From: an uncultured virus (IMG/VR IMGVR_UViG_3300034106_002431)
Lineage: Duplodnaviria > Heunggongvirae > Uroviricota > Caudoviricetes
Virus record (IMG/VR): IMGVR_UViG_3300034106_002431
Reading direction: 5' to 3' (one strand)
Length of the DNA stretch: 64,000 bases
Shown: positions 34,944-52,862 of the stretch, one piece after another
Layout: each line of letters starts with the position of its first letter
Numbering within the stretch: position 1 is the first letter of the stretch
Program-made: the position numbers and the translations under genes
Notes under the pieces: generated by a model
What the model was told of the DNA's origin: nothing
The model's input: only the letters and a program-made list of their open reading frames with translations
Database searches by the model: none

Positions 34944-34969
34944 ATCCTGAGCAAGATCTAAAACTGCTC
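34944..34969 (+). ncRNA. Mini H-type pseudoknot motif, copy 1
   Basis: ATC-CTGAGCAA-GAT-cta-AAAC-TGCTC. Confidence 0.7.
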
Positions 34970-35233
34970 CCAATTTTTTGGGGCGCCCCGTTCGGGCGTG
35001 TCGTCCACAAAGTTATCCACAGGCCTGCTTGTGTGAGTTTTATCACATGGCTTGAGCGTCTCACTATTTGGACTTACTCCCTAGTAACTTGATAATTTAT
35101 GTCTAATAGGCTAGACTTACATAGTAAGAAAAAATAAATAAAAGAAAGTCTATTCGCTTACGGCGTGTCTAACCGAAAATGTCAGACCCCTATGGTAGGA
35201 TAGAATTATCAACAAAAAGAAAGAGGTTGGCAA

Positions 35234-35443
35234 ATGTCAGCAAATGTCTATACAATAGAAAACCTACTTGTAGGAAAAACTTATCACTCTCGCACACTAA
35301 AGGGAGAAATTATCTCAGCCGAAAAGTCTGATGTATGGTATGAGGGTTGCGAAAGTTATCTTGTTCAGGTTCGTCCCCACTACTCAGCACCACTTAACTT
35401 AAAGGATACTTATCGTGTCCTAGCAGTAAGAATTGGAGACTAG
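35234..35443 (+). CDS. Hypothetical protein
   Basis: AGAGG RBS with an upstream promoter. Confidence 0.6.
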   Translation: MSANVYTIENLLVGKTYHSRTLKGEIISAEKSDVWYEGCESYLVQVRPHYSAPLNLKDTYRVLAVRIGD

Positions 35444-35719
35444 TAATGGGATACATAGAGATTTTTAGAATTGACAATGAGGGGGCAGGTTGGATAGACT
35501 TGTCTCAGGCAACAGATAAAGAATTGCTAGACCTAGAAATAGGTTTATTTCAGGAAGGGGCTATCTAATGGCTAAGATGAAAACACTATACACAGAAATT
35601 GAGAATTGCGAACAATGCTACGGGCAGGGTTGGCAATTTTGGGCACAGGGAGAGGACTTTGATACAGAGTCTTGCGATTGTAATCCACACCAATTATTTA
35701 TCACTAAGGAGAATAACTA

Positions 35720-35938
35720 ATGAACGAATACCTATACTCAGTAACTAGCACCAACGATAGTGATACCAATACACTTTGGGTTGGACGCTATTCTAATGCC
35801 CTTGACGCAGTAAATGTCTTTAATAGTTTTATTGACTATGGTGACGCTAAGGAATACAGAGTAGTTAATTTATCTGAACCTTCAGGTAAGTTACACACAA
35901 AAACTTTCTACACAACAGGAATGGTGGTAACACGATAA
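35720..35938 (+). CDS. Hypothetical protein
   Basis: AAGGAG RBS. Confidence 0.6.
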   Translation: MNEYLYSVTSTNDSDTNTLWVGRYSNALDAVNVFNSFIDYGDAKEYRVVNLSEPSGKLHTKTFYTTGMVVTR

Positions 35939-36216
35939 TGGGAAGCGTAACAGCAATTGGATTAGCAGATAGCGTATTAGATTTAGAAACGCAGATAGCG
36001 TATCACTTACAAGGTAATCACTATCCACCCGTACCACTAAGCATGGTTCAGCCTTGTATTGACGCTATTGACGCATACTATGATGAGGACTATGACCGAT
36101 TTATTGCTATGCCTGAAGGCGTATTCTATAAGGGTATGAGCCATGCCCCTGCTCATGCTATTGTAGACCAACACCACTTATCATGGTTCATTGACCCAGT
36201 AGATGAGGAAGAGTAA
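35938..36216 (+). CDS. Hypothetical protein
   Basis: HLQGNHYPPVP motif; coupled ORF. Confidence 0.65.
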   Translation: MGSVTAIGLADSVLDLETQIAYHLQGNHYPPVPLSMVQPCIDAIDAYYDEDYDRFIAMPEGVFYKGMSHAPAHAIVDQHHLSWFIDPVDEEE

Positions 36217-36462
36217 ATGTCTGATACAATGATTGCTATGGATTTAATACACGCTGATGATCTAACACCAAGCCAGTTAATGATTGGCGATTTAATAAAA
36301 GTTAATGATGACATTGTTGAAGTTATTTATTTAGAAAGTGATTCAACAGGAGATAACTATTCAGTAGAAACTCAAAACGAGTTTGGTGAAAAAGAAGTTG
36401 TGTTGTATAGTTACACTGATACAATTCCGTTTTATGTTTTTATTGAAGATGATGACGATTAA
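36217..36462 (+). CDS. Hypothetical acidic protein
   Basis: Coupled ORF. Confidence 0.6.
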   Translation: MSDTMIAMDLIHADDLTPSQLMIGDLIKVNDDIVEVIYLESDSTGDNYSVETQNEFGEKEVVLYSYTDTIPFYVFIEDDDD

Positions 36463-36677
36463 TAAATAAATTCCCTGAAAAAAAATGGGCGCCCCGTTCG
36501 GGTGTGTCTGGGGATAACCTGTGGATAACTTCAATCTACTCACGAGTAACCTATATATAATTTCTTTAAGAAGGAGCATTTTTTTTCCCAGAATTTTTGG
36601 CTGGGAAAATTTTTTTGTGATTTTAATCACACGATCAAGATTTGACATTTTTACCCTAAGTCTGCTAAGATTAACTT

Positions 36678-36827
36678 ATGAAGAAAACACCTGAAGAATT
36701 ACGCAGACTCATGGAACTAAGGCGTTCTAATGCTGCCTCAGCCGTGCCTTCAAAGAAATCCTATAACCGTAGGAAATGTCAGTCCGAAATGATACAATTA
36801 AAGAAATACAAAGGAGACCCCCTATGA
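36678..36827 (+). CDS. Small basic leaderless protein
   Basis: MKKTPEELRRLMELRRSNAASAVPSKKSYNRRK..., directly after a TTGACA/TAAGAT promoter. Confidence 0.55.
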   Translation: MKKTPEELRRLMELRRSNAASAVPSKKSYNRRKCQSEMIQLKKYKGDPL

Positions 36828-36991
36828 ACGACTACGCACTAGATGAGTACTACGCAACAACCTGCCCTTCATGCAAAGAAAATGCCGTTGATGACTATGA
36901 AGATAAGTGCACACATTGCTTGCTTGAAGAAATGTCTGCAACCTATAACGAAGACATCGCACTAGAAATGAGCCTAGGCCTTGACTACTAA
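36824..36991 (+). CDS. Small Zn-ribbon protein
   Basis: CPSC...CTHC; AAGGAG RBS. Confidence 0.55.
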   Translation: MNDYALDEYYATTCPSCKENAVDDYEDKCTHCLLEEMSATYNEDIALEMSLGLDY

Positions 36992-37706
36992 ACTAAAAAG
37001 ATCATTTGACAGAAAGGTCGCTAATGCCGTCTCACCTAATGGAAAAACCGCAACAATCGCTAACACATTTGGACTACCTGCTGGAAAGGCTTTCTCGTGC
37101 CCTGGTGCCACTAGTGTTTGTGAAAGCGTTTGCTATGCAGGAAAACTTGAAAAACTCTTCAAAGGAGTAAAGGCTAACCTACTACACAATTGGGACCTAG
37201 TCAAAGACGCAGACCATGATACTATAGAAGAATTGTTAACTGATATGATTAACGATTTTCGTGCAGACTGTGTAAAGAAAGACGCACCCCTACTCTTCCG
37301 CATTCACTGGGACGGAGATTTCTTTAATGATACTTATACATTCGCATGGAAGCATGTCATCCTTAACAATCCTGATATTCAATTCTGGGTATATACACGT
37401 GTTAAGTCTGCAGCCGTAATGCTTAAAAATATTGATAATCTATCACTATACTATTCAACAGACAGTGAGAATAAGTCTATTGGTATTGGACTTAAAACCG
37501 ATCATGGCATTCGTCTTGCATACCTTGCTAAGAATTTTGCTATTGGCCAGGCTGACATGAAAGAATTAACAAATAGACCTGGTGCTAAGTGTCCTGAAAA
37601 TAATAAACAGATTCCACTTATTTCTAAGCAGGGCTCGGCTTGCGTTTCTTGCTCATTGTGTGTATACTCTAAGAGTGATATCATATTTAGTGCGAGTAAA
37701 AAGTAA
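36981..37706 (+). CDS. Gp88-like phage protein (radical-SAM-like Cys cluster)
   Basis: FGLPAG..SCPGA...C...CYA, FRIHWDGDF, FWVYTR, CVSCSLC. Confidence 0.7.
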   Translation: MTTKLKRSFDRKVANAVSPNGKTATIANTFGLPAGKAFSCPGATSVCESVCYAGKLEKLFKGVKANLLHNWDLVKDADHDTIEELLTDMINDFRADCVKKDAPLLFRIHWDGDFFNDTYTFAWKHVILNNPDIQFWVYTRVKSAAVMLKNIDNLSLYYSTDSENKSIGIGLKTDHGIRLAYLAKNFAIGQADMKELTNRPGAKCPENNKQIPLISKQGSACVSCSLCVYSKSDIIFSASKK

Positions 37707-37958
37707 ATGAGTCCTTGGTTCTATTTACTAATGATGTTAATAGTTTTATTGTCTATTAGTGGTAGTTCTGGTATTTAAATAAATCCCCTGCCAAAAATGC
37801 AGGGCGCCCCCTGACCAGTCATTTGTCAAGTCACGACACGCATAAAAAATGTGATTAAGGACACACTAAAAAATGTCACTAAGATTTGTATTTATGACAT
37901 TTTTCTGCTAAAATTATACTATAAGCAATTAACCCCCACAACGAAAGGCAAGACCCAA

Positions 37959-38129
37959 ATGACACTACACGGATACACATACCAAATTGGTGACTTGTTC
38001 ACAACAAGCAAAACAGGCGTTACAGGTCGTATCGCAGGTTTCGAGCCAATGTCTAATAAGGTTACTAGAGTTTCACTCGTCCTAGCAAATGGCTCACGCC
38101 GTCTGGCTATGGTCAAGACATCTAAGTAA
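37959..38129 (+). CDS. Small beta-barrel (SH3/KOW-like) protein
   Basis: YQIGDLFTTSKTGVTGRI; GAAAGG RBS. Confidence 0.6.
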   Translation: MTLHGYTYQIGDLFTTSKTGVTGRIAGFEPMSNKVTRVSLVLANGSRRLAMVKTSK

Positions 38130-38232
38130 TCTCAAAATGTGAGAAATGTCAGATTTCGATTTGACATTTTTACAGGCAAAATGTTATACTTAGGTATAAC
38201 GAAAACAACCCTCTAACAGAAAAGGAAATACA

Positions 38233-38400
38233 ATGTCAGTAGCAACAGCAACATACAAAGTCGGAGACCTCTACACAACACAGAAGTCAAAGGTAACAGG
38301 AACAATCACAGAAATCACACCTAACCCAAACGGACAATCAGTTCGTGTTAAGTTAGATGTAAATGGTTCAGTTCGTTACACAACTTGGACGGCTAAGTAA
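38233..38400 (+). CDS. Small protein, paralog of 37959-38129
   Basis: MSVATATYKVGDLYTTQKSKVTGTI...; not in the ORF track (55 aa). Confidence 0.65.
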   Translation: MSVATATYKVGDLYTTQKSKVTGTITEITPNPNGQSVRVKLDVNGSVRYTTWTAK

Positions 38401-38411
38401 TCTAATTACTA

Positions 38412-38438
38412 ATTCCTGAGTATGAATAAAAACTGCTC
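38412..38438 (+). ncRNA. Mini pseudoknot motif, copy 2
   Basis: ATTC-CTGAGTAT-GAAT-aa-AAAC-TGCTC. Confidence 0.7.
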
Positions 38439-38474
38439 AACCACCCCCCAACTAACAGAAAAGGAACAGACCCA

Positions 38475-38897
38475 ATGGCACGACAAAAAGCAATCTCAGT
38501 AAAGATAGCAACACCAAAGGTAATCAAGGCACTAGAAACTCGTCTAGCAAAGTTAGAACTTGATTGGACTAATCAAGAAGCAAACGAGGCAAAGTATCAG
38601 AAGCAATACGATAAGTGGAAAAAGGAACTTTTTGACTATGCCGTAGCAAACATCAAGAAGGCAGAAAACCTACGCACCAACTATCGTAATTGGAATAACC
38701 AATTAAACATTGACTTCGACCTAACAGTTTCAGATAAGGATTTGCCTAAAGAGCCTGAGAAGGACTACGAAGTTCTACACCGACACTCATACAATGAGAT
38801 GAAAGAGGAACTATCAAACGCAATCCGTATCCTAAAGATGACGGACGAGGAAGTAGTTAGCACCAGCACTTACAATGCCGTTGCTCGTTATCTCTAA
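38475..38897 (+). CDS. Conserved actinophage-type coiled-coil protein
   Basis: AAAGGA RBS; helical composition. Confidence 0.65.
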   Translation: MARQKAISVKIATPKVIKALETRLAKLELDWTNQEANEAKYQKQYDKWKKELFDYAVANIKKAENLRTNYRNWNNQLNIDFDLTVSDKDLPKEPEKDYEVLHRHSYNEMKEELSNAIRILKMTDEEVVSTSTYNAVARYL

Positions 38898-38947
38898 ATA
38901 AATCAACACGACCACAGAAATGCGTGTATAAATAAATAGAGTGGAAA

Positions 38948-38974
38948 CGACCTGAGTATGTCGCTAAACTGCTC
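38948..38974 (+). ncRNA. Mini pseudoknot motif, copy 3
   Basis: CGAC-CTGAGTAT-GTCG-ct-AAAC-TGCTC. Confidence 0.7.
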
Positions 38975-39085
38975 ACCTTATACCCTGTGCTCCGTAGGTT
39001 CCCTGGGTGTATGGTTCGCCAGGCTAATTAGGGCGATCATAGAAATACTATAGAGCCAGTTCACACCAACTGCAAGAAGTGTAAC

Positions 39086-39111
39086 TACCTGAGTATGTAT
39101 CAAAACTGCTC
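39086..39111 (+). ncRNA. Mini pseudoknot motif, copy 4
   Basis: TAC-CTGAGTAT-GTA-tca-AAAC-TGCTC. Confidence 0.7.
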
Positions 39112-39186
39112 CCCGCAAGGGCCCTTGACAATTGTCAGTGGCACCCAGTACAATTAATGTAAACCAACTAACAGAAAGAGGCCCCC

Positions 39187-39603
39187 ATGGACCAGCCAGT
39201 AATCGACAATCACTACATGACACGAGAGTTTTTAGAAACCACTCTTGTGCAAAACAAAGAACGCATTCAGCAACTTGAAGAGCACATTCAAAAGGTAACC
39301 CAACGTTCATATGGCGAGGCTGCAGAGCGTTCACGTATGCAAAACGAAATGCAAGAGTGGACCTTGGAAGCAATGGAGCACGGAACAATCGATGAGTCTA
39401 CTGCACAAGAAATTGCAGACATTTGCGGATTCGAATTGTCAAAAGAATTTGAACTAGAAGTTACAGTTCAATATTCAATTACAGTTAATGCTCGTGATGA
39501 AGAATCTGCACAAAATGCAATTCATGATATTGATTTTGATTCAGTCTCATATGGTGAAGAAGTAACTTACTTATCATCCAGTGTTGACCGTATAGAAATT
39601 TAG
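39187..39603 (+). CDS. Hypothetical protein
   Basis: GAAAGAGG RBS with a strong promoter upstream. Confidence 0.7.
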   Translation: MDQPVIDNHYMTREFLETTLVQNKERIQQLEEHIQKVTQRSYGEAAERSRMQNEMQEWTLEAMEHGTIDESTAQEIADICGFELSKEFELEVTVQYSITVNARDEESAQNAIHDIDFDSVSYGEEVTYLSSSVDRIEI

Positions 39604-39618
39604 TAGGGGGCTACTAAT

Positions 39619-39645
39619 AAACCTGAGCATGTTTTAAAACTGCTC
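39619..39645 (+). ncRNA. Mini pseudoknot motif, copy 5
   Basis: AAAC-CTGAGCAT-GTTT-ta-AAAC-TGCTC. Confidence 0.7.
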
Positions 39646-39811
39646 CTCTCTTCCCTCAAAATTTTGGGGCGCCCCCTGTCAAGTCGACACGCCGATGCTT
39701 AGGGGTGATCTTTTACAAAATGTCCGATTTGTCCATGATTAACTATCCCGATTTGCATTTGTCAGTCCGTCCTGTTATACTTAAATCTCAACAACAAAAA
39801 GGAGAAAACTC

Positions 39812-40825
39812 ATGGCACATGACCTAGAAACACAAAACGGTAAGGCATCTTTTGCATCTTTCCGTGAACCTGCTTGGCATGGATTGGGTACCGTATTCAC
39901 AGAAGAAAAGACCACAAAAGAAATGTTAGACCTTGCTAACCTTTCTAATTGGAATGTTCGTCTTGAGGATTTGGAAACCCCATCACATTTGACAAGTGAT
40001 AAAAACTATCAGTACGTTTTGCGTACTAACCCTACAGATAACACACAGACCGACATTCTTGGTGTCGTTGGTGAGCGTTACCATGTAATGCAGAATGAAG
40101 ATTTATTCTCATTCGGTGATAACATTCTAGACGGTGGTGGTCGTTGGGAAACGGCTGGCTCAATCAAGGGTGGACGTGTCGTGTTCGGTGCATTGGCACT
40201 AGAGCGTGAAACAATTCTAGACCCTAACGGTGTTGCAGATAAGGTAAAGACTTATTTACTTATCAACACATCACATGACGGCTCAATCGCTATTCAAGCA
40301 TCTATTACACCTGTTCGTGTTGTATGTGCTAACACTCTTAACCTTGCACTAAATACTACACGCAAGAAGAATGGTGTCAAGCAATCTTTCAAGATTCGCC
40401 ACACACAGACAGCATCTGGTAAGGTTGCCGTTGCTCGTGAAACTCTTGGGCTTGCTCATAAGTACATGGATTCTTTTGACCTCATGGCTAACGCTATGAT
40501 TCAACAAGAAGTTTCTGCTAAGATGTTTAACGACATCATTCTTGCTGCATACCCAAAGCCTGAAAAGGATTCTAAGGGTGCTTTCAAGAAGTGGGAAAAC
40601 AAGGTTGATGTTATCAATGACATCTACACAGGCGAGTTTAACGGAATGATTGCTGGTAATGCGTGGGGTGCTTTCAATGCACTTACTGAGCGTTTAGATT
40701 GGCACCGTTCTGCTCGTGGTGGTTCTAACGAATCAATCCTTGCATCTGCAAGTGGTTTTGACCCTGCTATCAATGCAGAAAAAAATCGCTTACTAAAAAT
40801 TGTGCGTGAATTAACTAACGCATAA
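39812..40825 (+). CDS. DUF932 family phage/plasmid protein
   Basis: REPAWHGLG, ETAGSIKGG, NTSHDGS, TPVRVVCANTL, IRHT. Confidence 0.88.
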   Translation: MAHDLETQNGKASFASFREPAWHGLGTVFTEEKTTKEMLDLANLSNWNVRLEDLETPSHLTSDKNYQYVLRTNPTDNTQTDILGVVGERYHVMQNEDLFSFGDNILDGGGRWETAGSIKGGRVVFGALALERETILDPNGVADKVKTYLLINTSHDGSIAIQASITPVRVVCANTLNLALNTTRKKNGVKQSFKIRHTQTASGKVAVARETLGLAHKYMDSFDLMANAMIQQEVSAKMFNDIILAAYPKPEKDSKGAFKKWENKVDVINDIYTGEFNGMIAGNAWGAFNALTERLDWHRSARGGSNESILASASGFDPAINAEKNRLLKIVRELTNA

Positions 40826-40844
40826 ATAAAAAAATAAATAAATG

Positions 40845-40875
40845 CCACCTGAGCAAGTGGATGCAAAAACTGCTC
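40845..40875 (+). ncRNA. Mini pseudoknot motif, copy 6 (4 nt upstream of tRNA-Asp)
   Basis: CCAC-CTGAGCAA-GTGG-atgcaa-AAAC-TGCTC. Confidence 0.7.
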
Positions 40876-40879
40876 ACAT

Positions 40880-40953
40880 GGTCCGTTAGAATAGTTGGTT
40901 AGTTCGCTACCCTGTCACGGTAGAGGTCACGGGTTCAAGTCCCGTACGGATCG
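40880..40953 (+). tRNA. tRNA-Asp(GTC)
   Basis: Acceptor GGTCCGT/ACGGATC, anticodon arm CTACC-ctGTCac-GGTAG, T-loop TTCAAGT; no encoded CCA. Confidence 0.93.
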
Positions 40954-41413
40954 CAAGAAAAAATGGGGCGCCCCCTGTGATCTATATCACATGAGATTTT
41001 TGTCAAAACTTAATTACGATAGAGTGATATTTTTCCTGGAATTTAATTACGAAGAGTTGATTTTTTTCCCGAAACCTGCTAGAATTAATCTATGACCCAA
41101 ACCATGAATACTATAGACGACCTCATAAATGAAATATACGAAAGCAACTACTCTCACCTAGAGTTTGAAGAAAATATGGGTGGAGATGCTTGTGACTGCC
41201 ATATCCATACTACACTAAATACTATAGCATTTTATGCTGGGATAGAGGTAGGGTAATGCTAGGCTATGAACTACAAGATCTAAATGATATGACCTATGGC
41301 ATTGACTCTGCCCTATTGATGATAAACCAGGACGAGAACCCTGCTATTGCTAGATACCTATCCAACGCCTCAGACTTTCTTAATGGACTATGGGCAGAAG
41401 GGTACTTTGACTA

Positions 41414-41629
41414 ATGTGGACTAAGTATGATTATCTATGTACTGATTGTGATGCCCTGATTCAAATCACTGCTTGTGCTGATAAGGTTCTTGATCCTGCC
41501 TGTATTTGCGGAGGGTATGGAATAGTTATCCTAATATCAGAATCAGATGGCAATGCCCCTATCCTTACAGATGTGAGCAAGGTCACACCCCGTACAGTTG
41601 TAAAAATTGACTCCAACCCGTATAATTAA
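41414..41629 (+). CDS. Small Zn-ribbon protein
   Basis: YDYLCTDC...CIC. Confidence 0.5.
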   Translation: MWTKYDYLCTDCDALIQITACADKVLDPACICGGYGIVILISESDGNAPILTDVSKVTPRTVVKIDSNPYN

Positions 41630-41790
41630 TATATGGACCTAAACACATTTATCGAATACATCAAACTACATCTGATTAGTCTTGAACAAGACCTTGAAGA
41701 AAACCCTGCCTCTATCCATGTGGTAGACATTGAGGGACAAATCTATGCTACTAAACATCTTTTGTCAGTGGCAGAGGGTAGAATATAACT

Positions 41791-42069
41791 ATGATGAACA
41801 CACAACTAGAACCAAGACTGCAGAAACTGATTGATATGGGAGAGTCAGGAACTGACATCCTACACGGGGAACTTAAAAACCTTATTTACGAGGCTGAGAA
41901 AGAATACCTTGAAATCGAACAAGAAGAGCGTGAGGGTGGCTACTCTGACGCAATGCTATCTATGGACAGAACAAGGGCTGAAGGTCGTATGGACGCTCTT
42001 GTAGAAGTCTATGCCCTTACATACCAACTGGCCTTTGCTATCAGTGACAGGATTAAGAACAATGAATAA
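41791..42069 (+). CDS. Hypothetical protein
   Basis: TAGAAT-N6-ATG leaderless start. Confidence 0.6.
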   Translation: MMNTQLEPRLQKLIDMGESGTDILHGELKNLIYEAEKEYLEIEQEEREGGYSDAMLSMDRTRAEGRMDALVEVYALTYQLAFAISDRIKNNE

Positions 42070-43761: not shown

Positions 43762-43972
43762 TCTGGCCCCTGCGGGGGCGCCCTATATTTTCTCATATGT
43801 CAAACCATGCAAACCACATTTTCAAAAGATGATTACGAACGATCAAAAATTTTTCCCCAAACCTAGCATATTACGATGGGCCAATTCTTTTCCCCAAACC
43901 TAGCATATCCTGGTTTGGCCAAACCTTATACCATACAAACCTTATATTGTCAAACCATGTTATAATTAAACC

Positions 43973-45229: not shown

Positions 45230-45823
45230 ATGATCAATTATAAAAATAGCAAGAGTTCTTCATTCCAAGAGTCGTTTGCCATATCTATGACCCAGGAGAA
45301 GAAGAATGGTTTCTATGTAGAGTTAGGCTCAGCAGACCCATATATCGAAAGTAACACCTATTTACTAGAATCTGAGTTTGGATGGAAGGGGCTTGCCTTA
45401 GAAATTGATGAAGGTCTGGCTCAAAGATATAACTCCTCTGACCGTACTAACAAGTGCACTAACGCTGATGCTTTAACCTTTGACTACCTGTCTTATTTTA
45501 GAGACAATAACTTCCCAAAGACTATTGACTTCTTGCAGATTGATATTGATGGACATGACAAAGGAAACTGTCTATTAGCCCTCCTAGCCCTGCCTATGCT
45601 ACAGTATAGATTTTCGGTCATAATCATTGAGCATGACCTGTCTCAAAACTACAAGAGAGCCTCCATGAGAGATGCTCAAAGAGAAATCTTAAGCAGCCTA
45701 GGATACAAACTAATTGGGCAAACCCTTAGTGAAGACTGGTGGATCGATCCAGAATCAGTAAACCAAGAAGCCTATAGATATGATATCTTCAACGGACATC
45801 CACTTATTGGAGAAGTAAAATGA
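45230..45823 (+). CDS. FkbM-family methyltransferase-like protein
   Basis: GFYVELGS...SNTYLLE...WKGLALE...IDFLQIDIDG. Confidence 0.78.
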   Translation: MINYKNSKSSSFQESFAISMTQEKKNGFYVELGSADPYIESNTYLLESEFGWKGLALEIDEGLAQRYNSSDRTNKCTNADALTFDYLSYFRDNNFPKTIDFLQIDIDGHDKGNCLLALLALPMLQYRFSVIIIEHDLSQNYKRASMRDAQREILSSLGYKLIGQTLSEDWWIDPESVNQEAYRYDIFNGHPLIGEVK

Positions 45824-46392
45824 ATGTAATCCAACACGCAGATGGCATATATGAAATAGAAGATTTCCTAAATGATGAAGAGCAAGAACTATTTCTATCT
45901 TCATGCACAGATGATGGATGGGAAGAGTCTCACCCAGGAAACATAACTAAGCCAATGACAAATGAAGAGTTTAGTCTAAGAGATAAACTGCTTGCTAGGC
46001 TAGGTACTTTTTTTGAAAACGTGGATTCTTTCTCTACTGTTAATCGCCTAAGAAGACTAACAACAGGTGAGTTTATGTGGCCTCACGTAGATGCTGGAAA
46101 GCCTCCAATACTTCCAGACACTGTAACCCCCATAGAAACTCCAGTAGAATCAAAGAGTATAGTCTTTGGGGTTGCGATATATCTAAATGACAAGTTTACA
46201 GGTGGTGAGTTATCCTACCCAGATATTGAACTAGATATCTATCCAAAGCCTAGAAGTGCAGTTATTCATAATGCTAAGTTTAACCATGAAGTTAAGACTG
46301 TTACCTCTGGTAATAGATATTCTATAACAGCATTTATTTATGGTGATGAGACTACCAAGTTTAATGGCCATGCCCAGGATAATAACCAATAG
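45820..46392 (+). CDS. 2OG-Fe(II) oxygenase
   Basis: HVD...YLNDKFTGGEL...HEV...GNRY. Confidence 0.88.
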   Translation: MNVIQHADGIYEIEDFLNDEEQELFLSSCTDDGWEESHPGNITKPMTNEEFSLRDKLLARLGTFFENVDSFSTVNRLRRLTTGEFMWPHVDAGKPPILPDTVTPIETPVESKSIVFGVAIYLNDKFTGGELSYPDIELDIYPKPRSAVIHNAKFNHEVKTVTSGNRYSITAFIYGDETTKFNGHAQDNNQ

Positions 46393-48194: not shown

Positions 48195-48476
48195 TGATTA
48201 ACGCTTTATTTTTAATACCAACTGCTATTGCAGCGTATTTACTGTGTTACTTTATAATGACATACAAAGTAGATCAAGACTAATTTTAGGAGAATAAAGA
48301 TGAGTATAGATGAAATGGCATTAAGAGAAGAGATAGCAAGAGAGATTGAAGCCCTTCCTATTGAACCATCTGTAACAAATGCATTAGGCATGCGTCTTGC
48401 TGCTGCACATGTTGCAAGAGGAAAAGCAAATTATATGGCCAGTATTTTTGAAAAACAAATGGACTTTGAGTAATAA

Positions 48477-48773
48477 GTGAGACACACAACAAAGATAGAA
48501 AAGACTAGGGTCTGGCCTCTAAGAGTTATAGGGAATATATGTGGTGGATTTGCTGGCAATCATTTGTTCAAGGCTATAATTCTAGATGAAGATGGCAATC
48601 TAGGTTGGCGTTATAAGTACCACGGTAAAATGTGGGTAGTGCTTAACAAACCTTACAGGTGGTGGGGCACATATTATGAACTTGATATTCAAGGACTAAA
48701 GGATGATCTAGATGGTGCTGGATGGGATGACTATGACGAGTTTGGTAAAGCCTACTGGGATAAAGATGAGTAG
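48477..48773 (+). CDS. Hypothetical protein
   Basis: 98-aa ORF. Confidence 0.5.
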   Translation: MRHTTKIEKTRVWPLRVIGNICGGFAGNHLFKAIILDEDGNLGWRYKYHGKMWVVLNKPYRWWGTYYELDIQGLKDDLDGAGWDDYDEFGKAYWDKDE

Positions 48774-48866
48774 GATACTTGTTTGTCCCGTCTGCAAAAA
48801 AGAATGGAACCTTCGATGGGGCATTATGGCTAATGAATCTCTATCTAATCACATGAAAGAACACCA

Positions 48867-49316
48867 ATGAAACCTCTTGCATACATCTTTGACGTAGACG
48901 GAACTCTAGCCAATGTAGATCCTTACCTTCACTATGTTCGTGGCTCTAATAGGGACTATGAGGCTTTTCATGAGGCTTCTGTAGATGCCCTGCCAAATAT
49001 AGAGGTAGTAGAAATGTTAAACAATGCTTTCTTTGATCAGATGCACGTCATTATTGTCACATCAAGAAAAGAAACTTGGCGTGGACTAACATCATATTGG
49101 CTTGCTAAAAATGACATTGGACATCATGCACTATACATGCGTGGTGATGATGATAACAGACCAGACTATGAAGTTAAAAAAGATATCTTACTTAAGATTA
49201 AGAAACATTGGAGCGTCGTTCATGCAGTAGACGATAACCCTAATGTAATTAGGTTGTGGGAAAATTATGGAATACCTACTACCAAGATCGGAACATGGGA
49301 CGGAGATAAGTCTTGA
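48867..49316 (+). CDS. HAD phosphatase like the T4 PNK 3'-phosphatase domain
   Basis: FDVDGTL, VTSR, MR...D.RPD..VK, VDD. Confidence 0.85.
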   Translation: MKPLAYIFDVDGTLANVDPYLHYVRGSNRDYEAFHEASVDALPNIEVVEMLNNAFFDQMHVIIVTSRKETWRGLTSYWLAKNDIGHHALYMRGDDDNRPDYEVKKDILLKIKKHWSVVHAVDDNPNVIRLWENYGIPTTKIGTWDGDKS

Positions 49317-49807
49317 CACAGACATCCCAATATGATATGATTAGATCATGAGCCAAAGAGTTAAGAAAATTTATAAGTGCGTTGAATGTGAGACTATGAT
49401 TACTATTGTAACCAAGGTTCACGAACTACCAGAGTCAATTATCTGTCCATGTGACAGCGTAGCAGAAAATCAGGGTGCAAAATGAGAAAGTCCAACAACA
49501 AAGCCTCTCAGCATAAAATTAAGAGAGCAGTTAAGAACAAGAAAAGAACACAGGCTAAGCCATACCTTTCAAAGTTTGAGCGTAAACAAAAAAGAATCAG
49601 AGAAGCAATTATTCTTGGAGCATTGAAGTCAGTGCCTAACTAGAACTGGAGATAGTCATGGTAGATCATGATGAGTTAAACAAAATATCAAAAGAACTAA
49701 AGCGTTACATTATTAAACAACATATGAAAACATATTATTATACTACTATTGGAATTTTATGTTTTCTGCTTGGAACATTCTTTGGATTACTAATTAAATA
49801 AGGACTA

Positions 49808-49882
49808 GCACCAGTAGCCAAGTTGGTTAAGGCACCGAACTCATAATTCGGCTATTCGTAGGTTCAAGTCCTACCTGGTGTA
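49808..49882 (+). tRNA. tRNA with CAT anticodon (Met or lysidine-modified Ile2)
   Basis: GCACCAG/CTGGTGT acceptor, CCGAA-ctCATaa-TTCGG, TTCAAGT T-loop. Confidence 0.9.
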
Positions 49883-49886
49883 CTAG

Positions 49887-49958
49887 ATCTCTGTAACTCA
49901 GTGGAAGAGTGACACCCTTCTAAGGTGTAGGTCGTAGGTTCGAATCCTACCAGGGATG
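49887..49958 (+). tRNA. tRNA-Arg(TCT)
   Basis: ATCTCTG/CAGGGAT acceptor, ACACC-ctTCTaa-GGTGT, TTCGAAT T-loop. Confidence 0.9.
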
Positions 49959-49972
49959 CTATAATAGTAGTA

Positions 49973-50035
49973 AGGGTGTGGTTAGAGTATGTGTGTCGGG
50001 AAACATATATGCTTTATGTTGCAACACCACACCCT
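49973..50035 (+). ncRNA. Candidate structured small RNA
   Basis: TATAAT at 49960; 10-bp closing stem AGGGTGTGGT/ACCACACCCT; inner 14-bp stem with four G-U pairs. Confidence 0.5.
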
Positions 50036-50063
50036 CCTAAATTTTGTATGAAAAACTATTTAT

Positions 50064-50801
50064 TTATCTAGCAGGATTCCAGAATAAAGAATCGTCTTCG
50101 TATATCTTTTTATCTAGTGTAAAATTTTCAAGAATTAAATCTTTTTCGCTTTGAGTTAAAGAATCGAACAGTCTTTTTGAAGCATCATTCTTAAAATATG
50201 TTTTGTCAATTTGTGATAAATCAACATCTAGTTCTACGCCTAAGTCTTCTGATATTTTTTTAACCAGCAATGTGTAATCCATATTTTTTAATTCATCAGT
50301 TCTAATAAACAAATTCGTTCTATTAATTCTATCATATATTAACTCTTCGTCATATTCCTTTTGCTCATCATGGAAAAATTGTGCTTCCTTAATAACAGAC
50401 ATTGCTGCTGGGTCTGGACTTAAAGCAAAATTATGCGCTTGAAAATCTTTCATGTAGTTCCAGTAAGATAACTTATCAAACAATTCTTCTTTTTCAACAT
50501 TGAGGTTTTCTCCTCTTATAACATGCCAATTTTCTTTGTCTATTAAGTCTGCTCTACCTGCAGCAGCATGACATACAGTGCTAACAAAAAACTCAGAAGG
50601 CTCTCTAAAAAGTGAGATAACATATGTTTCATCATCTATAAAGAATGGCCATCCACCGTGCTGTCTCATGTCTTCTGGCATTCTAAGATACTCAATACCG
50701 TGTTTAGCAAGAGTATCTTCCATAGGTCTGATAATATACTTTGTTAAGAATCTACCACCAGTTTTTGGTATGTGTAAAAAATAAACTTTGTTATATTTCA
50801 T
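50064..50801 (-). CDS. Sulfotransferase-family protein
   Basis: YFLHIPKTGG 5'-PSB motif; FREP..F.S. Confidence 0.72.
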   Translation of the reverse strand: MKYNKVYFLHIPKTGGRFLTKYIIRPMEDTLAKHGIEYLRMPEDMRQHGGWPFFIDDETYVISLFREPSEFFVSTVCHAAAGRADLIDKENWHVIRGENLNVEKEELFDKLSYWNYMKDFQAHNFALSPDPAAMSVIKEAQFFHDEQKEYDEELIYDRINRTNLFIRTDELKNMDYTLLVKKISEDLGVELDVDLSQIDKTYFKNDASKRLFDSLTQSEKDLILENFTLDKKIYEDDSLFWNPAR

Positions 50802-50930
50802 TTACTTTGCCTTGTGCTTTACTTCGTAAGGTGCGATCTTGGACTTAATACGACCATCTTTATATAATCTAACAATCCATCCATCTTTAATCTGAATAGG
50901 ATTAAACGCTGCTGCTTTTTTCTTTGGCAT
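50802..50930 (-). CDS. Small basic protein
   Basis: MPKKKAAAFNPIQIKDGWIVRLYKDGRIK...; coupled to both neighbours. Confidence 0.5.
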   Translation of the reverse strand: MPKKKAAAFNPIQIKDGWIVRLYKDGRIKSKIAPYEVKHKAK

Positions 50931-51232
50931 TACTTTACCATCCTAAATGGAGAATCAATCCAACTATCTGACTTAGCGACTGGAATACAGTTAGGTACTG
51001 GCTTTCCGTCTGCACCTGGCTTCATGCCTCTTTGTACATAGCCATCCCAGCAAGGTGCTTGCTTAGCAACTGTTTCAGCCTGGCAATCTGGACACTCTTC
51101 ACAGGTTACGTTTAGTTCTTTACAAGTTGGACAACCACAGTCTTCGTATGCCTTACCAATTGATGAGTCGTACATAGCCATAGCAACTTCTGAATCGATT
51201 GCTGAAGAAGAGCATTTTGGGCAGTTTGTCAT
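50930..51232 (-). CDS. Cys-rich protein with a CWDGY...VPNC module
   Basis: Several CxxC motifs; CWDGYVQRGMK...PVPNC. Confidence 0.6.
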   Translation of the reverse strand: MTNCPKCSSSAIDSEVAMAMYDSSIGKAYEDCGCPTCKELNVTCEECPDCQAETVAKQAPCWDGYVQRGMKPGADGKPVPNCIPVAKSDSWIDSPFRMVK

Positions 51233-51239
51233 ACTATAA

Positions 51240-51512
51240 TTATATCATACCGTTAAGCCTGTTGTAAGTCCTGATCCTGTGGCAGTTGGCACAAACCACT
51301 TCACACTTTTCTATTTCTTTCTTGATAGCCTTCCATGAAAAACCATCATGGATCATCCTTGACACATTGTACTTCTTATCTCTTATGTGATCAAAGTCTA
51401 GGATTATATGGTTACCAACACCACAGTCTACACAGCCAGAATCTTCTTTTATCTTAGCAAGCATCTTCTTATACTGCTGCTTATTATAGGTGTCTAACTC
51501 TTTGTCAGTCAT
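51240..51512 (-). CDS. HNH endonuclease-like protein
   Basis: CVDCG...LDFDH...EIEKCEVVCANCHRIRT. Confidence 0.85.
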   Translation of the reverse strand: MTDKELDTYNKQQYKKMLAKIKEDSGCVDCGVGNHIILDFDHIRDKKYNVSRMIHDGFSWKAIKKEIEKCEVVCANCHRIRTYNRLNGMI

Positions 51513-51539
51513 TGATATTATTATACCGCCAAATGTTAG

Positions 51540-51623
51540 GTCCCACACAGGCAATTCACCTGACTTGCGCCACGGTCTCTATCCAATGGGTAACTAATCC
51601 ATCACTAAGGTCCTGTGTGGGAC
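51540..51623 (-). ncRNA. Candidate ~84-nt small RNA
   Basis: TATAAT at 51635-51630; perfect 12-bp terminal stem GTCCCACACAGG/CCTGTGTGGGAC. Confidence 0.55.
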
Positions 51624-51638
51624 ACTTCTATTATACTG

Positions 51639-52682
51639 CTACTTTGAACTTATTTCTGCTACTCTCGCCTTTGAGAATTTAAGCATAGAACTTCTGATTG
51701 GCGAGTAGCCAAGATCTTCAGCCTTCTTTCCACAGGTATCAAGCATGAAGTTAAAGAACTTTTTAACTGAATCATTCTTTGAGTTCTTTTCTTTGTATGC
51801 TACACCATAGGTAAATGTAGATATGTTATAAGATAGTTTGTTTGGGTTCTTATAGTTTATCTTAACTACACCACTTTTATCTGGAATAAAATCTCCAAGA
51901 AATACAGAGGCTGCGCTAACTGTTGGTTGTATAAACCTTCTAGCCTCATTCTCAACAGACACTGTCTTTAGTCCTCTTGCATATGATATCTCATTATATC
52001 CAATAGAGCCATTTGTAGTGCTCTGTACCATTGCAATTCCATGTGATCCAGAAGCACTGTTCATATACTGCTTAGATATGTCTCCAGGAAATGCACTTGA
52101 AAAGTTTTTATTTCCTGGCTTTGTCCAAATTGTTGGAGCCACAGCATTTAAATATGAAGTAAAAACTTCTGAAGTTCCAGAACCATCAACACGGTATACA
52201 ACTCTAATCTTTGTTGCTGGTATCTTAGGTAGTTTTCCTGATATAAGGTTTTCTTTTAATATCTGTGGGTCGTTCCACATTGTTATTTGTCCCGCAAAAA
52301 CTTTAGCAAGAGTATCTTTACTCATCTTTATAGTAACTTTATATCCATCAAGTTTGTAGATAATTCCAATTGGCCCTGCTACTAATGGAACATATGTAAA
52401 CTCTTTTGATGGCTTTACTTCTGTCCCAGAGTAAGGAACATCTGACATAGCAAAGTCTGTTACTCCATTTGAAAACATATTCTTTCCAGCACCTGAACCA
52501 GATGCTCCATACACAACAGAATCTCCTGTTGATTTCATAAATTCGACCCTGCATCTGTCTATAAAGTTAGCAGCAAATGTGGATCCAGCACCTTGAAGGT
52601 TATCGGCATGTGAAGGGGTAATAAAAAAAGCATTAGCAAATATGGCTAATGCTGCTGATAAAGCAATGAATTTAAATTTCAT
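51639..52682 (-). CDS. pstS: Phosphate ABC transporter substrate-binding protein
   Basis: Signal peptide; GAGSTF, GSGAG, DFAMSD, YRVDGSGTS. Confidence 0.92.
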   Translation of the reverse strand: MKFKFIALSAALAIFANAFFITPSHADNLQGAGSTFAANFIDRCRVEFMKSTGDSVVYGASGSGAGKNMFSNGVTDFAMSDVPYSGTEVKPSKEFTYVPLVAGPIGIIYKLDGYKVTIKMSKDTLAKVFAGQITMWNDPQILKENLISGKLPKIPATKIRVVYRVDGSGTSEVFTSYLNAVAPTIWTKPGNKNFSSAFPGDISKQYMNSASGSHGIAMVQSTTNGSIGYNEISYARGLKTVSVENEARRFIQPTVSAASVFLGDFIPDKSGVVKINYKNPNKLSYNISTFTYGVAYKEKNSKNDSVKKFFNFMLDTCGKKAEDLGYSPIRSSMLKFSKARVAEISSK

Positions 52683-52758
52683 ACTTATAGTATATACGAC
52701 AAGGCTATAAAGTTTTGTTATAAATGGCAAACAAACAAAGAACTTTAGATGAATAATG

Positions 52759-52862
52759 GAGCAGTTTATGGACTTGCTCAGGTCTCCCAGGGTGCGACCC
52801 TGGCTTATCCGTACTCAGCAATAGGGTTGCTATAAGCAACTGCATGTATCATGACGGAATAC
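52759..52862 (-). ncRNA. Candidate multi-stem small RNA ending in pseudoknot copy 7 (52759-52784)
   Basis: TATAAT near 52870; stems TCCGT/ACGGA, GTTGCT/AGCAAC and CCAGGG/CCCTGG; then GAC-CTGAGCAA-GTC-cat-AAAC-TGCTC. Confidence 0.6.

What the first reader, a model, noticed from the sequence alone, without database searches (positions are those of the whole stretch)
34944..52784. Seven copies of a ~26-31 nt H-type RNA pseudoknot with a fully covarying first stem, at 3' ends of transcription units
Seen in sequence: consensus [P1 5']-CUGAGYAW-[P1 3']-N2-6-AAAC-UGCUC at 34944, 38412, 38948, 39086, 39619, 40845 (+) and 52784-52759 (-). P1 differs in every copy but always pairs: ATC/GAT, ATTC/GAAT, CGAC/GTCG, TAC/GTA, AAAC/GTTT, CCAC/GTGG, GAC/GTC. 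The loop GAGYA pairs with the distal UGCUC, and its C/U variation gives C-G or U-G, which points to RNA rather than a DNA site. Every copy is in the sense orientation and lies just after a stop codon or at the end of a non-coding RNA body; one is 4 nt before tRNA-Asp. The topology (short P1, A-rich linker ending AAAC) recalls preQ1-I aptamers, but the loop sequence differs and I do not recognise the family. Inference: a phage 3'-end cap or exonuclease block, a processing signal, or a protein/ligand-binding module.
Basis: partly seen in the sequence, partly recalled or inferred. Interest (0 to 1): 0.88.

Follow-up and report, generated by a model that had tools for sequence, protein, structure and literature searches.

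The report
Stop-codon-anchored phage RNA pseudoknot family
Seven copies of a tiny knotted RNA fold sit just behind gene ends in this phage; the same fold occurs in many unrelated phages and mobile elements, is absent from the RNA catalogue searched, and probably acts as a mechanical end-cap for messages.

Summary
All seven copies exist at the stated places (0 expected by chance), all in sense orientation.

Both helices of the H-type pseudoknot covary across related sequences:
- P1: 125 of 142 viral copies pair, against 3-7 of 142 in shifted controls.
- P2: changing a loop base changes its distal partner, e.g. G13->A goes with C34->U in 91 of 106.

The family is large. Named hosts of the fold include Lactobacillus and Anoxybacillus phages and Synechococcus phage S-CRM01.

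No Rfam 15 family matches, and eight literature searches found no description.

Context rules:
- The CUGAG box starts at least 9 nt after the upstream stop codon, with a sharp floor and no 3-nt periodicity.
- What follows varies: SD plus start codon, a tRNA 4-13 nt away, hammerhead or twister ribozymes 0-2 nt away, T-runs, or terminators.

Best reading (0.4, untested): a compact roadblock that caps the 3' end of the upstream message. Main rival (0.27): a 5'->3' block like the coremin xrRNA of plant RNA viruses, the closest known relative.

Earlier notes of this scan describe what appears to be the same family on other DNA.

The parts
34944..34969 (+). Pseudoknot copy 1: P1 ATC/GAT, loop CUGAGCAA, linker ending AAAC, P2 3' strand UGCUC. 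CUGAG starts 9 nt after the stop of ORF 33906-34937.
   Evidence: 43.8 bits
38412..38438 (+). Pseudoknot copy 2: P1 ATTC/GAAT. CUGAG starts 15 nt after the stop of ORF 38233-38400. The next ATG, at 38475, is 36 nt downstream.
   Evidence: 43.4 bits
38948..38974 (+). Pseudoknot copy 3: P1 CGAC/GTCG. CUGAG starts 54 nt after the stop of ORF 38475-38897. Metatranscriptome contigs of relatives break off on both sides of it.
   Evidence: (48.1 bits)
39086..39111 (+). Pseudoknot copy 4: P1 TAC/GTA. It follows a 111-nt non-coding spacer. It is followed flush by a CCC-GCAA-GGG hairpin and by a sigma-70-like site (TTGACA-18-TACAAT, 39125-39154).
   Evidence: (37.8 bits)
39619..39645 (+). Pseudoknot copy 5: P1 AAAC/GTTT. 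CUGAG starts 19 nt after the TAG stop of ORF 39187-39603. A hairpin at 39601-39616 overlaps that stop.
   Evidence: 47.0 bits
40845..40875 (+). Pseudoknot copy 6: P1 CCAC/GTGG with a long linker. CUGAG starts 23 nt after the stop of the DUF932 gene (39812-40825). The copy ends 4 nt before tRNA-Asp.
   Evidence: 36.3 bits
52759..52784 (-). Pseudoknot copy 7 on the minus strand: P1 GAC/GTC. CUGAG starts 92 nt after the Hsp20 gene stop, behind a hairpin at 52803-52787, and upstream of the PstS-like gene.
   Evidence: 38.5 bits
40880..40954 (+). tRNA-Asp (GUC). Its 5' end, where RNase P would cut, lies 4 nt after copy 6. The order DUF932 gene - pseudoknot - tRNA-Asp recurs in relatives.

Best explanation
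The element is a 26-31 nt classical H-type RNA pseudoknot transcribed as part of polycistronic phage and mobile-element messages. Its parts are: P1, 3-5 bp and free to covary, closed by C-G; L1 = CU; P2, 5-6 bp, usually GAGYA:UGCUC; one junction base; and an A-rich L3 ending AAAC. It is placed as close behind the upstream stop codon as a terminating ribosome allows, so the first P1 pair lies about 5 nt after the stop. Most likely it works as a compact mechanical roadblock that becomes the 3'-terminal structure of the upstream message. That would happen after transcription ends (T-run or terminator) or after the RNA is cut just downstream (RNase P at a tRNA, or hammerhead or twister self-cleavage). 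It would then stop 3'->5' exonucleases before they reach the coding region. Shown: the structure, strand, spacing rule, contexts and distribution. Inferred: that it resists nucleases, and in which direction.
For: Structure:
- P1 covaries.
- P2 covaries. With loop position 13 = A the partner is T in 91 of 106. With position 12 = G the partner is C in 107 of 114. With position 11 = A the partner is T in 94 of 119.
- Single cases add an inserted C-G pair and G-U wobbles. S-CRM01 copies carry two or three compensated pairs each.

Tie to the upstream ORF:
- The stop-to-CUGAG distance has a sharp floor at 9 nt. Viral set: 3 of 127 at 0-8 nt, 19 at 9, and 57 at 9-13. Bacterial set: 0 of 94 at 0-8, 13 at 9, and 34 at 9-13.
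- There is no such peak for opposite-strand ORFs.
- The floor is the same for P1 lengths of 3, 4 or 5 bp.
- The distance to the next start codon is far more variable, 9-180 nt.

It stays with the upstream fragment at cut sites:
- 13 of 227 copies lie 4-13 nt before a tRNA.
- Hammerhead III starts flush in L227 and twister-P1 starts 2 nt after in L250.
- Further hammerhead cores follow in L010, L015 and L221. These ribozymes cut near their own 5' ends (recalled).

End-of-unit cases:
- Canonical terminators follow within about 10-30 nt in several MAG loci.
- T-runs follow within 10 nt in 36 of 227.
- Copies at the end of a gene block outnumber copies at the start, 14 to 7.

Sense orientation:
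- In the viral set, upstream flanks are same-strand in 77, opposite in 12 and unassigned in 34 of 123.

The host range is broad, which fits a self-contained, host-independent device.
Against: - No RNA 3' end, half-life or nuclease assay exists. The only expression data are metatranscriptome contigs, which cannot show ends.
- The two helices are short, so stability must rest on unproven tertiary contacts.
- Where a canonical terminator follows, a second 3' barrier looks redundant.
- In S-CRM01 the fold sits between tRNAs, where there is no message to protect.
- About a third of copies lie within 40 nt upstream of an SD and start codon (69 of 227). In Firmicutes phages the single copy precedes the scaffold and major head genes. 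Both also fit a role for the downstream RNA.
- The closest published relative, coremin, blocks a 5'->3' enzyme, not a 3'->5' one (PMC10520033 and PMC10321173, passages read).
- The block-end versus block-start count (14 versus 7) is weak.
Confidence: 0.4

Rival explanations
1. The fold is a 5'->3' roadblock of the coremin/xrRNA type. It would stop RNase J, or ribosomes sliding past the stop codon, coming from the upstream cistron. That would protect or insulate whatever lies downstream: the next cistron, a tRNA, a ribozyme or a structured leader.
For: It resembles coremin: a 4-bp first hairpin closed by C-G, a loop starting with a pyrimidine, a spacer containing UUAAAC, then the loop-pairing strand. 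A tested heptaloop, CGAGUAA, differs from the phage loop CUGAGUAA by one base. Coremin stalls Xrn1 and scanning ribosomes and stimulates -1 frameshifting (passages of PMC10520033 and PMC10321173). The sharp 9-nt floor suggests that ribosomes cannot easily melt the fold. 69 of 227 copies lie within 40 nt upstream of an SD and start codon. In Firmicutes phages the single copy sits before the scaffold and major head genes. The conserved A-rich L3 would reinforce P1, the helix met first from the 5' side (inference).
Against: The fold is tied more tightly to the upstream stop than to the downstream start. It is cut away from the downstream RNA by RNase P, hammerhead or twister. Some copies are followed only by a terminator or a convergent gene. 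The second hairpin that coremin needs is not enriched: 27 of 226 against 24-31 in downstream controls. Some hosts are beta- or gamma-proteobacterial MAGs, groups that I recall mostly lack RNase J.
Confidence: 0.27
2. The fold is a processing signal that mimics a tRNA acceptor arm. The stacked P2 and P1 helices, with U at -1, a G:C first pair and a 3' A-C-C tail, would be cut by RNase P between U10 and G11. It would then punctuate polycistronic RNA as tRNAs and ribozymes do.
For: U10 is invariant and G11:C36 nearly so. After P2 the base is A in 70%, then C in 47% and 48%. ACC follows in 26 of 144 copies, against about 1% expected from composition. The element occupies the same niches as hammerheads that flank single prophage genes such as ardA (PMC3088659, passages; flanking ArdA and ArdC genes). 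The RNase P determinants and the cleavage of pseudoknotted tRNA-like structures are recalled, not tested.
Against: The stack is only 9-10 bp with no T-loop. A-C-C is absent in the Firmicutes copies, which have T-runs. A second cutting signal 0-13 nt before a tRNA or ribozyme would be redundant. It does not explain the stop-codon floor.
Confidence: 0.1
3. The fold is a translation-linked device. A pseudoknot at the mRNA entry site of the terminating ribosome would tune termination, recycling or re-initiation, coupling or uncoupling neighbouring cistrons, or would promote recoding at the stop.
For: The geometry matches frameshift and readthrough stimulators: about 5-9 nt from the A-site codon to the first pair in 82 of 130 spacers measured. 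Coremin-type folds stimulate frameshifting in vitro (PMC10321173, passages).
Against: The stop-to-fold distance shows no 3-nt periodicity: combined viral plus bacterial counts are 32, 22, 13, 15 and 10 at 9-13 nt. All three stop codons are used, with TAA dominant. The downstream frame soon hits stops. Copies occur between tRNAs and after non-coding spacers.
Confidence: 0.08
4. The fold is a folding insulator or a recombination module. A fast-folding knot would isolate neighbouring structured RNAs from the ORF. Alternatively, its conserved 10+10 nt would serve as micro-homology for shuffling gene and tRNA cassettes between phages.
For: It lies flush to ribozymes, tRNAs and DUF2800 RNA. Metatranscriptome contigs of relatives break off exactly at the borders of copy 3, at 38945, 38975/6 and 39015. 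It flanks accessory genes of many unrelated families.
Against: An insulator needs no sequence conservation in the loops. Recombination homology would not select for compensatory changes in P2. Shuffling may be a consequence rather than the function.
Confidence: 0.06
5. The fold is a very small self-cleaving ribozyme or a ligand-binding aptamer, preQ1-I-like in topology.
For: It has highly conserved loop nucleotides, a pseudoknot and a wide phylogenetic spread, which are the criteria for 'sophisticated' RNAs in PMC5737381 (passage read). It occupies the same genomic niches as hammerhead and twister.
Against: At 26-31 nt it is smaller than any ribozyme class I recall. It often sits directly beside a true ribozyme. 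It gives no Rfam hit to any ribozyme or riboswitch model. It has up to about 10 model matches per genome, behind unrelated genes, with no metabolic gene association.
Confidence: 0.05

Closest known systems
Coremin motif (xrRNA-C) and its Watson-Crick variant (xrRNA-WCC) of beny-, cucumo- and other eukaryotic RNA viruses (Dilweg et al.: PMC6546385 seen only in a search listing; PMC10520033 and PMC10321173, passages read)
   Same: Both are tiny. Both have a 4-bp first hairpin whose stem covaries and is closed by C-G, a loop starting with a pyrimidine, and a spacer containing UUAAAC followed by the strand that pairs with the loop. The topology is H-type, compared by those authors with luteovirus frameshift knots. 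Both lie in intergenic regions or 3' UTRs and are thought to act as mechanical blocks.
   Different: The phage fold has an 8-nt loop with a 2-nt L1 and a 5-6 bp Watson-Crick P2, against none or 3 bp. It lacks the required second hairpin (27 of 226, not enriched). It occurs in DNA phages, prophages and other mobile elements of prokaryotes, which I recall lack Xrn1. It is anchored at least 9 nt behind stop codons. Its nuclease resistance and direction are untested.
Luteovirid -1 frameshift pseudoknots (BWYV, PLRV type; described in PMC10321173, details recalled)
   Same: Both are about 28-nt compact H-type knots with a 1-2 nt L1, a single junction base and an A-rich 3' loop expected to lie in the minor groove of stem 1. 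Both sit about 5-9 nt downstream of the codon in the ribosomal A site.
   Different: The phage fold follows a stop codon, not a slippery heptamer. It shows no reading-frame periodicity. It also occurs between tRNAs and after non-coding spacers.
Class 3 plant-virus xrRNA (xrRNA-D; PMC6299227 section 5 part 1 and PMC11702639 section 3 part 1 read)
   Same: In both, a hairpin's apical loop pairs with a downstream strand, and bases are conserved just upstream of the 3' pseudoknot strand. Some are intergenic, 5-20 nt before a start codon.
   Different: Class 3 elements are 44-54 nt with stacked P1 and P2, an L2B motif and a ring around the 5' end. The phage fold shows none of these.
MALAT1 3'-end module: triple helix followed by the tRNA-like mascRNA cut by RNase P (recalled, no call)
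   Same: The order of parts matches: a compact A-rich tertiary structure, a few bases, then a tRNA(-like) RNase P site. The cut would leave the structure as a protective 3' end.
   Different: MALAT1 is a eukaryotic nuclear lncRNA with a U-A-U triple helix on an A-tract. Only 13 of 227 phage copies precede a tRNA.
Hammerhead ribozymes flanking single genes in prophages (Perreault et al. 2011, PMC3088659, passages read)
   Same: The niche is the same: between accessory or early genes such as ardA in polycistronic prophage RNA. Both are read as punctuation of long transcripts, and the two sometimes occur side by side.
   Different: There is no hammerhead core and no evidence of self-cleavage. The fold lies on the 5' side of the ribozyme and would remain on the upstream product.
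preQ1-I riboswitch aptamer
   Same: Both are small H-type knots with a short P1 and an A-rich tail.
   Different: The Rfam model gives no match. P2 is longer and the junction loop is only 1 nt. There are no queuosine genes nearby. The fold is multi-copy and lies behind stop codons.

Membership tests
Coremin xrRNA-C / xrRNA-WCC | First hairpin of about 4 bp whose stem sequence is free | tested here: met
   The modal P1 is 4 bp (70 of 142; 3-5 bp in 116 of 142) and all four pair types occur.
Coremin xrRNA-C / xrRNA-WCC | Loop consensus YGAD, YGNNAD or longer variants | tested here: inconclusive
   The phage loop is CUGAGYAW (8 nt). It starts with Y and ends A-W, but G is third, not second. The tested heptaloop CGAGUAA is one base away (passage).
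Coremin xrRNA-C / xrRNA-WCC | Conserved spacer (UUAAAC...) followed by bases that contact the loop | tested here: met
   AAAC stands before the P2 3' strand in all 135 rows of A1, but the scan pattern fixed it there. It is also kept in 21 of 22 variant copies found with the model. Loop-to-3'-strand pairing is proven by covariation.
Coremin xrRNA-C / xrRNA-WCC | A second hairpin directly downstream, required for Xrn1 resistance | tested here: not met
   A hairpin of at least 4 bp starts 0-3 nt after P2 in 27 of 226 copies, against 24-31 of 226 in windows 20-60 nt further downstream.
Coremin xrRNA-C / xrRNA-WCC | Stalls a 5'->3' exoribonuclease in vitro | not testable with these tools
   Needs an Xrn1 or RNase J digestion assay.
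preQ1-I riboswitch (RF00522) | Match to the family model, and a position in the 5' UTR of queuosine-related genes | tested here: not met
   No Rfam hit at gathering score or at E<=10. The flanking genes are DUF932, Hsp20, PstS-like, ArdA and scaffold genes, among others.
-1 programmed frameshift stimulator | A fixed reading-frame relation to an upstream slippery site inside an ORF | tested here: not met
   The fold follows stop codons. Distances of 9, 10, 11, 12 and 13 nt are all common, with no periodicity. Slippery heptamers were not searched for.
Self-cleaving ribozyme classes in Rfam (hammerhead, twister, twister-sister, pistol, hatchet, HDV-like) | Match to a family model | tested here: not met
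   The fold itself matches none. Hammerhead III and twister-P1 models match the sequence immediately downstream in some loci.
Intrinsic (Rho-independent) terminator | A G+C-rich hairpin followed directly by a U-tract | tested here: inconclusive
   A T-run of at least 4 lies within 10 nt in 36 of 227 copies, mainly in Firmicutes phages. Most copies have none and are read through into tRNAs, ribozymes or the next gene.

The most novel reading that the evidence does not exclude
This is the first prokaryotic counterpart of viral exonuclease-resistant RNAs. It would be a 26-31 nt self-sufficient mechanical knot that phages, prophages and conjugative elements of many bacterial phyla (and perhaps archaea) place exactly one ribosome footprint behind stop codons. 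Each cistron would then become its own stability unit. The 3' end would be made by RNase P, a ribozyme or termination and then capped by the knot, a bacterial analogue of the MALAT1 triple-helix/mascRNA module. Its likeness to the coremin motif of eukaryotic RNA viruses could reflect shared ancestry or convergence.
Probability: 0.35. Interest if true: 0.88.

Novelty: new variant of a known kind. Interest (0 to 1): 0.8.

Why it matters
- If the fold is a nuclease or helicase roadblock, it would be a general, host-independent way for phages and mobile elements to set message stability gene by gene.
- It would explain why tRNAs and small ribozymes sit where they do in phage operons.
- It would extend the xrRNA concept from eukaryotic RNA viruses to the prokaryotic virosphere.
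- Practically, a 27-nt portable end-cap with a simple placement rule (at least 9 nt after the stop) would be a useful part for engineering bacterial and phage gene expression.
- A covariance model of it would annotate many intergenic regions that are now blank.

Tried and rejected
- **Rfam.** The whole window at gathering score gave only 3 tRNAs. Region 38300-41000 at E<=10 gave nothing at the copies; a SNORD115 chance hit at E 7.8 overlaps copy 5 on the opposite strand.
- **Window identity.** Megablast of 34000-42000 against named phages gave no match. The window's own assembly is not held; the nearest record, G001, carries the same 7 copies.
- **High-GC actinophages.** Evy and Cali gave no model hit, so 'actinophage element' is too narrow a label.
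- **Promoter readings.** A sigma-70 promoter is rejected because the two conserved boxes are only about 6 nt apart. A phage-RNAP or N4-type hairpin promoter is rejected because the linker length varies, G-U wobbles occur on the sense strand only, and P2 covaries.
- **Readthrough or frameshift.** Rejected for lack of periodicity.
- **ToxI-like antitoxin.** Rejected because the copies are dispersed and not tandem (from memory of that family).
- **Coremin-type second hairpin.** Not enriched.
- **Spacer between copies 3 and 4.** It shows no fold signal.
- **Metatranscriptomes.** 24 runs hold small shares (0.06-0.18) of 37800-41100. Four were laid, all as contigs, so they give no RNA ends, strand or level. 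They show only that relatives occur in RNA libraries.
- **Literature.** Eight searches found no description of the phage element. Two 2026 genome-language-model preprints, searched by term, do not mention it. Supplements were not opened, and the supplementary motif lists of PMC5737381 could in principle hold it under another name.
- **Mis-registration.** My P2 columns were wrong, so that part of the output is void.

Full report
**What is in the window**

The seven sites exist exactly as described. The pattern CTGAGYAW-N3-6-N2-8-AAACTGCTC hits 7 times and never in 100 dinucleotide-preserving shuffles. Each copy has the same layout:
- a 3-4 bp stem (P1) that differs in every copy but always pairs;
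- an 8-nt loop, CUGAGYAW;
- a linker ending AAAC;
- the strand UGCUC, complementary to GAGYA in the loop.

All copies lie on the strand of their neighbouring ORFs. CUGAG starts 9, 15, 54, 19 and 23 nt after the stops of ORFs ending at 34937, 38400, 38897, 39603 and 40825. Copy 7 starts 92 nt after the Hsp20 gene stop on the minus strand. Copy 4 follows a 111-nt non-coding spacer that folds no better than shuffles (z -0.27). Copy 6 ends 4 nt before tRNA-Asp.

The window is a phage fragment of 38% G+C. It carries tail-fibre genes, a ribonucleotide reductase, many 2OG-Fe(II) oxygenase paralogues, PstS-like and Hsp20 genes, an endolysin, and genes best matched in actinophages (DUF932, GP88). Its own assembly is not held. 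The nearest record, G001, shares 81% of sampled words and has the same seven copies.

**The fold is real and it is RNA**

*P1.* In 142 non-redundant copies, 125 have at least 3 contiguous pairs. Only 7, 3 and 5 do when the 3' arm is slid by 1-3 nt. On a 135-row alignment the three inner pairs are 97% paired, and each takes all four Watson-Crick types (for example GC 59, AU 26, CG 26, UA 18). The covariation score is 0.317 against 0.064 in shuffles, exceeded in 0 of 500. The closing pair is C-G in 128 rows, with G-C in 2. My P2 columns were mis-registered and that part is void.

*P2.* The first pattern fixed P2, so I tested it in two other ways.
- A covariance model with P1 only (R1) was run over 49 viral records. 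The 20 lower-scoring places I fetched and re-scored (22 matches) included A11-U36, G12-C35, U14-A33, an inserted C-G pair and several G-U wobbles. Two copies had one mismatch.
- Three IMG/VR scans each forced one loop base to change and left its partner free.

| Loop change | Partner found | Among copies with a good P1 |
|---|---|---|
| position 13 = A | T in 91 of 106 | 67 of 70 |
| position 12 = G | C in 107 of 114 | 77 of 82; the other 5 are T, i.e. G-U |
| position 11 = A | T in 94 of 119 | 68 of 84 |

Copies in Synechococcus phage S-CRM01 carry two or three compensated P2 pairs each, for example GAAUA:UAUUC and AGGUA:UAUCU. The G-U wobbles would be C-A mismatches on the other strand, so the structure belongs to the sense RNA.

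*Geometry.* It is a classical H-type knot: L1 = CU (2 nt) across a 5-6 bp P2, one junction base, and an A-rich L3 of 5 or more nt across a 4-bp P1.

**Where it sits**

*Upstream.* Using crude ORFs (at least 50 open codons), the distance from the upstream same-strand stop to CUGAG has a sharp floor at 9 nt.

| Set | at 0-8 nt | at 9 nt | at 9-13 nt | more than 45 nt | no upstream long ORF | TGA inside CUGAG is the stop |
|---|---|---|---|---|---|---|
| Viral (n = 127) | 3 | 19 | 57 | 25 | 7 | 4 |
| Bacterial (n = 94) | 0 | 13 | 34 | 29 | 5 | 10 (some are chance in-ORF matches) |

Opposite-strand ORFs show no such peak. The floor is the same for P1 lengths of 3, 4 or 5, and there is no 3-nt periodicity. 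With a 4-bp P1 the first pair lies about 5 nt after the stop, roughly where mRNA leaves the entry tunnel of a ribosome holding the stop codon in its A site. That geometry is established knowledge, recalled.

*Downstream.* The context is varied.

| Set | SD + start within 40 nt | tRNA within 20 nt | Hammerhead-like core | T-run within 10 nt | Other |
|---|---|---|---|---|---|
| Viral (n = 131) | 46 | 12 | 3 | 19 | 51 |
| Bacterial (n = 96) | 23 | 1 | 2 | 17 | 53 |

Rfam run on 20 chosen loci found these directly after the fold:
- hammerhead III starting flush (L227);
- twister-P1 2 nt after (L250);
- DUF2800 RNA 2 nt after (L042, L263, L306);
- tRNAs (L057, L195, L305).

Several MAG loci have a canonical terminator 10-30 nt downstream. 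Flanks are mostly same-strand: in the viral set, 77 same, 12 opposite and 34 unassigned of 123 upstream.

**Who has it**

The organisms include Saccharibacteria and other CPR MAGs, Aminicenantes, Chloroflexi, Firmicutes (Lactobacillus and relatives, Clostridia), Bacteroidota, cyanobacteria (Calothrix), alpha-, beta- and gamma-proteobacteria and Methanobrevibacter MAGs. A few are chance in-ORF hits, for example in Pseudomonas.

Flanking genes are typical of phages and conjugative elements: ArdA, ArdC-N, DUF7249 (6), DUF3768 (2), DUF2958, minor capsid and scaffold proteins. In the viral loci DUF932 lies upstream in 14 of 35.

Named phages with one copy each are Lactobacillus phage phiAQ113, prophage Lj771 and Anoxybacillus phage A403. 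BLAST also matched phi jlb1, KC5a and six other L. helveticus phages at the same place; I did not scan those with the model. In phiAQ113 and A403 the copy lies between the minor-head gene region and the scaffold gene, and in Lj771 between a gene annotated as head maturation protease and the scaffold gene. In all three it is followed by a T-run.

The 49 viral records scanned carry 1-10 model matches each at E <= 1, weak ones included.

**Known or not**

No Rfam 15 family matches. Eight full-text searches found no description of the phage element.

Earlier notes of this scan describe what is evidently the same family on other genomes. They name the coremin motif (xrRNA-C/WCC) as the closest relative. 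I reached the spacing rule and the cut-site adjacency before reading those notes.

I took the coremin lead from the notes and checked it against passages of PMC10520033 and PMC10321173.
- Coremin is a 4-bp hairpin with a YGAD or YGNNAD loop (a CGAGUAA heptaloop also works), a spacer UUAAACUAC, and a required second hairpin.
- It stalls Xrn1 and scanning ribosomes and stimulates -1 frameshifting.
- The WCC variant forms a 3-bp Watson-Crick loop-spacer helix.

The likeness to the phage fold is striking: the 4-bp stem closed by C-G, a loop starting with C, and UUAAAC before the pairing strand. But the phage fold has a longer P2, and the second hairpin is not enriched (27 of 226 against 24-31 in controls). 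So it is not a member by that criterion.

**How it most likely works**

Three things tie the element to the end of the upstream cistron:
- the stop-codon floor;
- its retention on the upstream product wherever RNase P, a hammerhead or a twister cuts just downstream;
- its presence at unit ends before terminators.

I therefore read it as a compact roadblock that caps the 3' end of the preceding message, placed as near the stop codon as a terminating ribosome allows (0.4).

The main rival is a 5'->3' block, as in coremin, acting against RNase J or sliding ribosomes and protecting what lies downstream (0.27). It is favoured by the structural kinship, by the third of copies that sit just upstream of an SD and start codon, and by the position before the scaffold and major head genes.

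Lesser options:
- an RNase P site mimicking an acceptor arm, based on U-1, the G:C first pair, and an A-C-C tail in 26 of 144;
- a translation-termination device;
- an insulator or recombination module, given the contig break points at copy 3;
- a ribozyme or aptamer.

None of these functions has been tested. Metatranscriptome contigs show only that relatives of the region occur in RNA libraries.

**Limits**

- Copy sets were ascertained with patterns that fix parts of the motif.
- ORFs were not called with a gene finder.
- MAG contigs may be mis-binned phage DNA.
- Supplementary files of the papers were not opened.

Noticed in passing
window 34979-34989, 39665-39675, 40964-40974 (near-copy at 43775-43785, minus strand): A second repeat, T-run + TGGGGCGCCCC (a GC palindrome), occurs 3 times exactly (0.16 expected). 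It lies 10-25 nt downstream of pseudoknot copies 1 and 5 and of tRNA-Asp. The third copy is followed by the inverted repeat TGTGATCTATATCACA (40976-40991). Similar GGGGCG/GTGATC strings follow the pseudoknot in relatives (L013, L086, L102). It may be an operator or promoter module.
   Followed up: partly
window 38975-39085: The 111-nt stretch between copies 3 and 4 has no long same-strand ORF, no Rfam hit and no fold signal (z -0.27). Metatranscriptome contigs of relatives diverge exactly at 38945, 38975/6 and 39015, as if this were a swappable cassette bounded by the pseudoknots.
   Followed up: partly
window 5758-12235, 21894-22565, 45820-46392: There is an unusual pile-up of 2OG-Fe(II) oxygenase-like paralogues: at least 8 ORFs hit phrog_61, six of them in an array broken by two phrog_7084 ORFs, one by itself at 21894-22565 and one at 45820-46392.
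   Followed up: no
window, whole: The gene content is mixed. Cyanophage-style auxiliary genes (PstS-like 51639-52730, Hsp20 52874-53290, tryptophan-halogenase-like 57741-59300) stand beside genes best matched in actinophages (DUF932, 52% identical to Streptomyces phages; GP88). G+C is 38%. The host is unresolved.
   Followed up: partly
loci L042, L263, L306: The Rfam DUF2800 RNA (RF02960) starts 2 nt after the pseudoknot in three unrelated records. In two of them (L042, L263) it opens with the same ACCGUC string that forms stem III and the cleavage site of the hammerhead in L227.
   Followed up: no
loci L258, L265, L302, L110, L107, L028; phiAQ113 (L319 1600-1690); Lj771 (L321 1530-1600): In Lactobacillus phages the pseudoknot and its T-run are followed by a further conserved ~60-nt leader (GUAUGCC...GAGAGGCGAACUCGUA...AAAGG) that runs up to the scaffold gene start. 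This is a possible second structured element.
   Followed up: no
loci L193, L206, L209, L216, L220, L235, L248, L255, L261: In Aminicenantes, Thermodesulfobacteriota and other MAGs, a conserved stretch that reads in one frame as a short Cys-rich peptide tail (...C-x-E-G-C...) runs into the pseudoknot. My hand translation of one locus ends at the fold's own UGA. In several loci a canonical terminator follows. It looks like a small, highly expressed peptide gene.
   Followed up: no
Synechococcus phage S-CRM01, NC_015569.1 about 129.6-130.9 kb, 141.8 kb and 149.4 kb: In the tRNA clusters of this cultured freshwater cyanophage, pseudoknot variants with different P2 sequences fill the spacers between tRNA genes. 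They start right after one tRNA and end a few bases before the next.
   Followed up: partly
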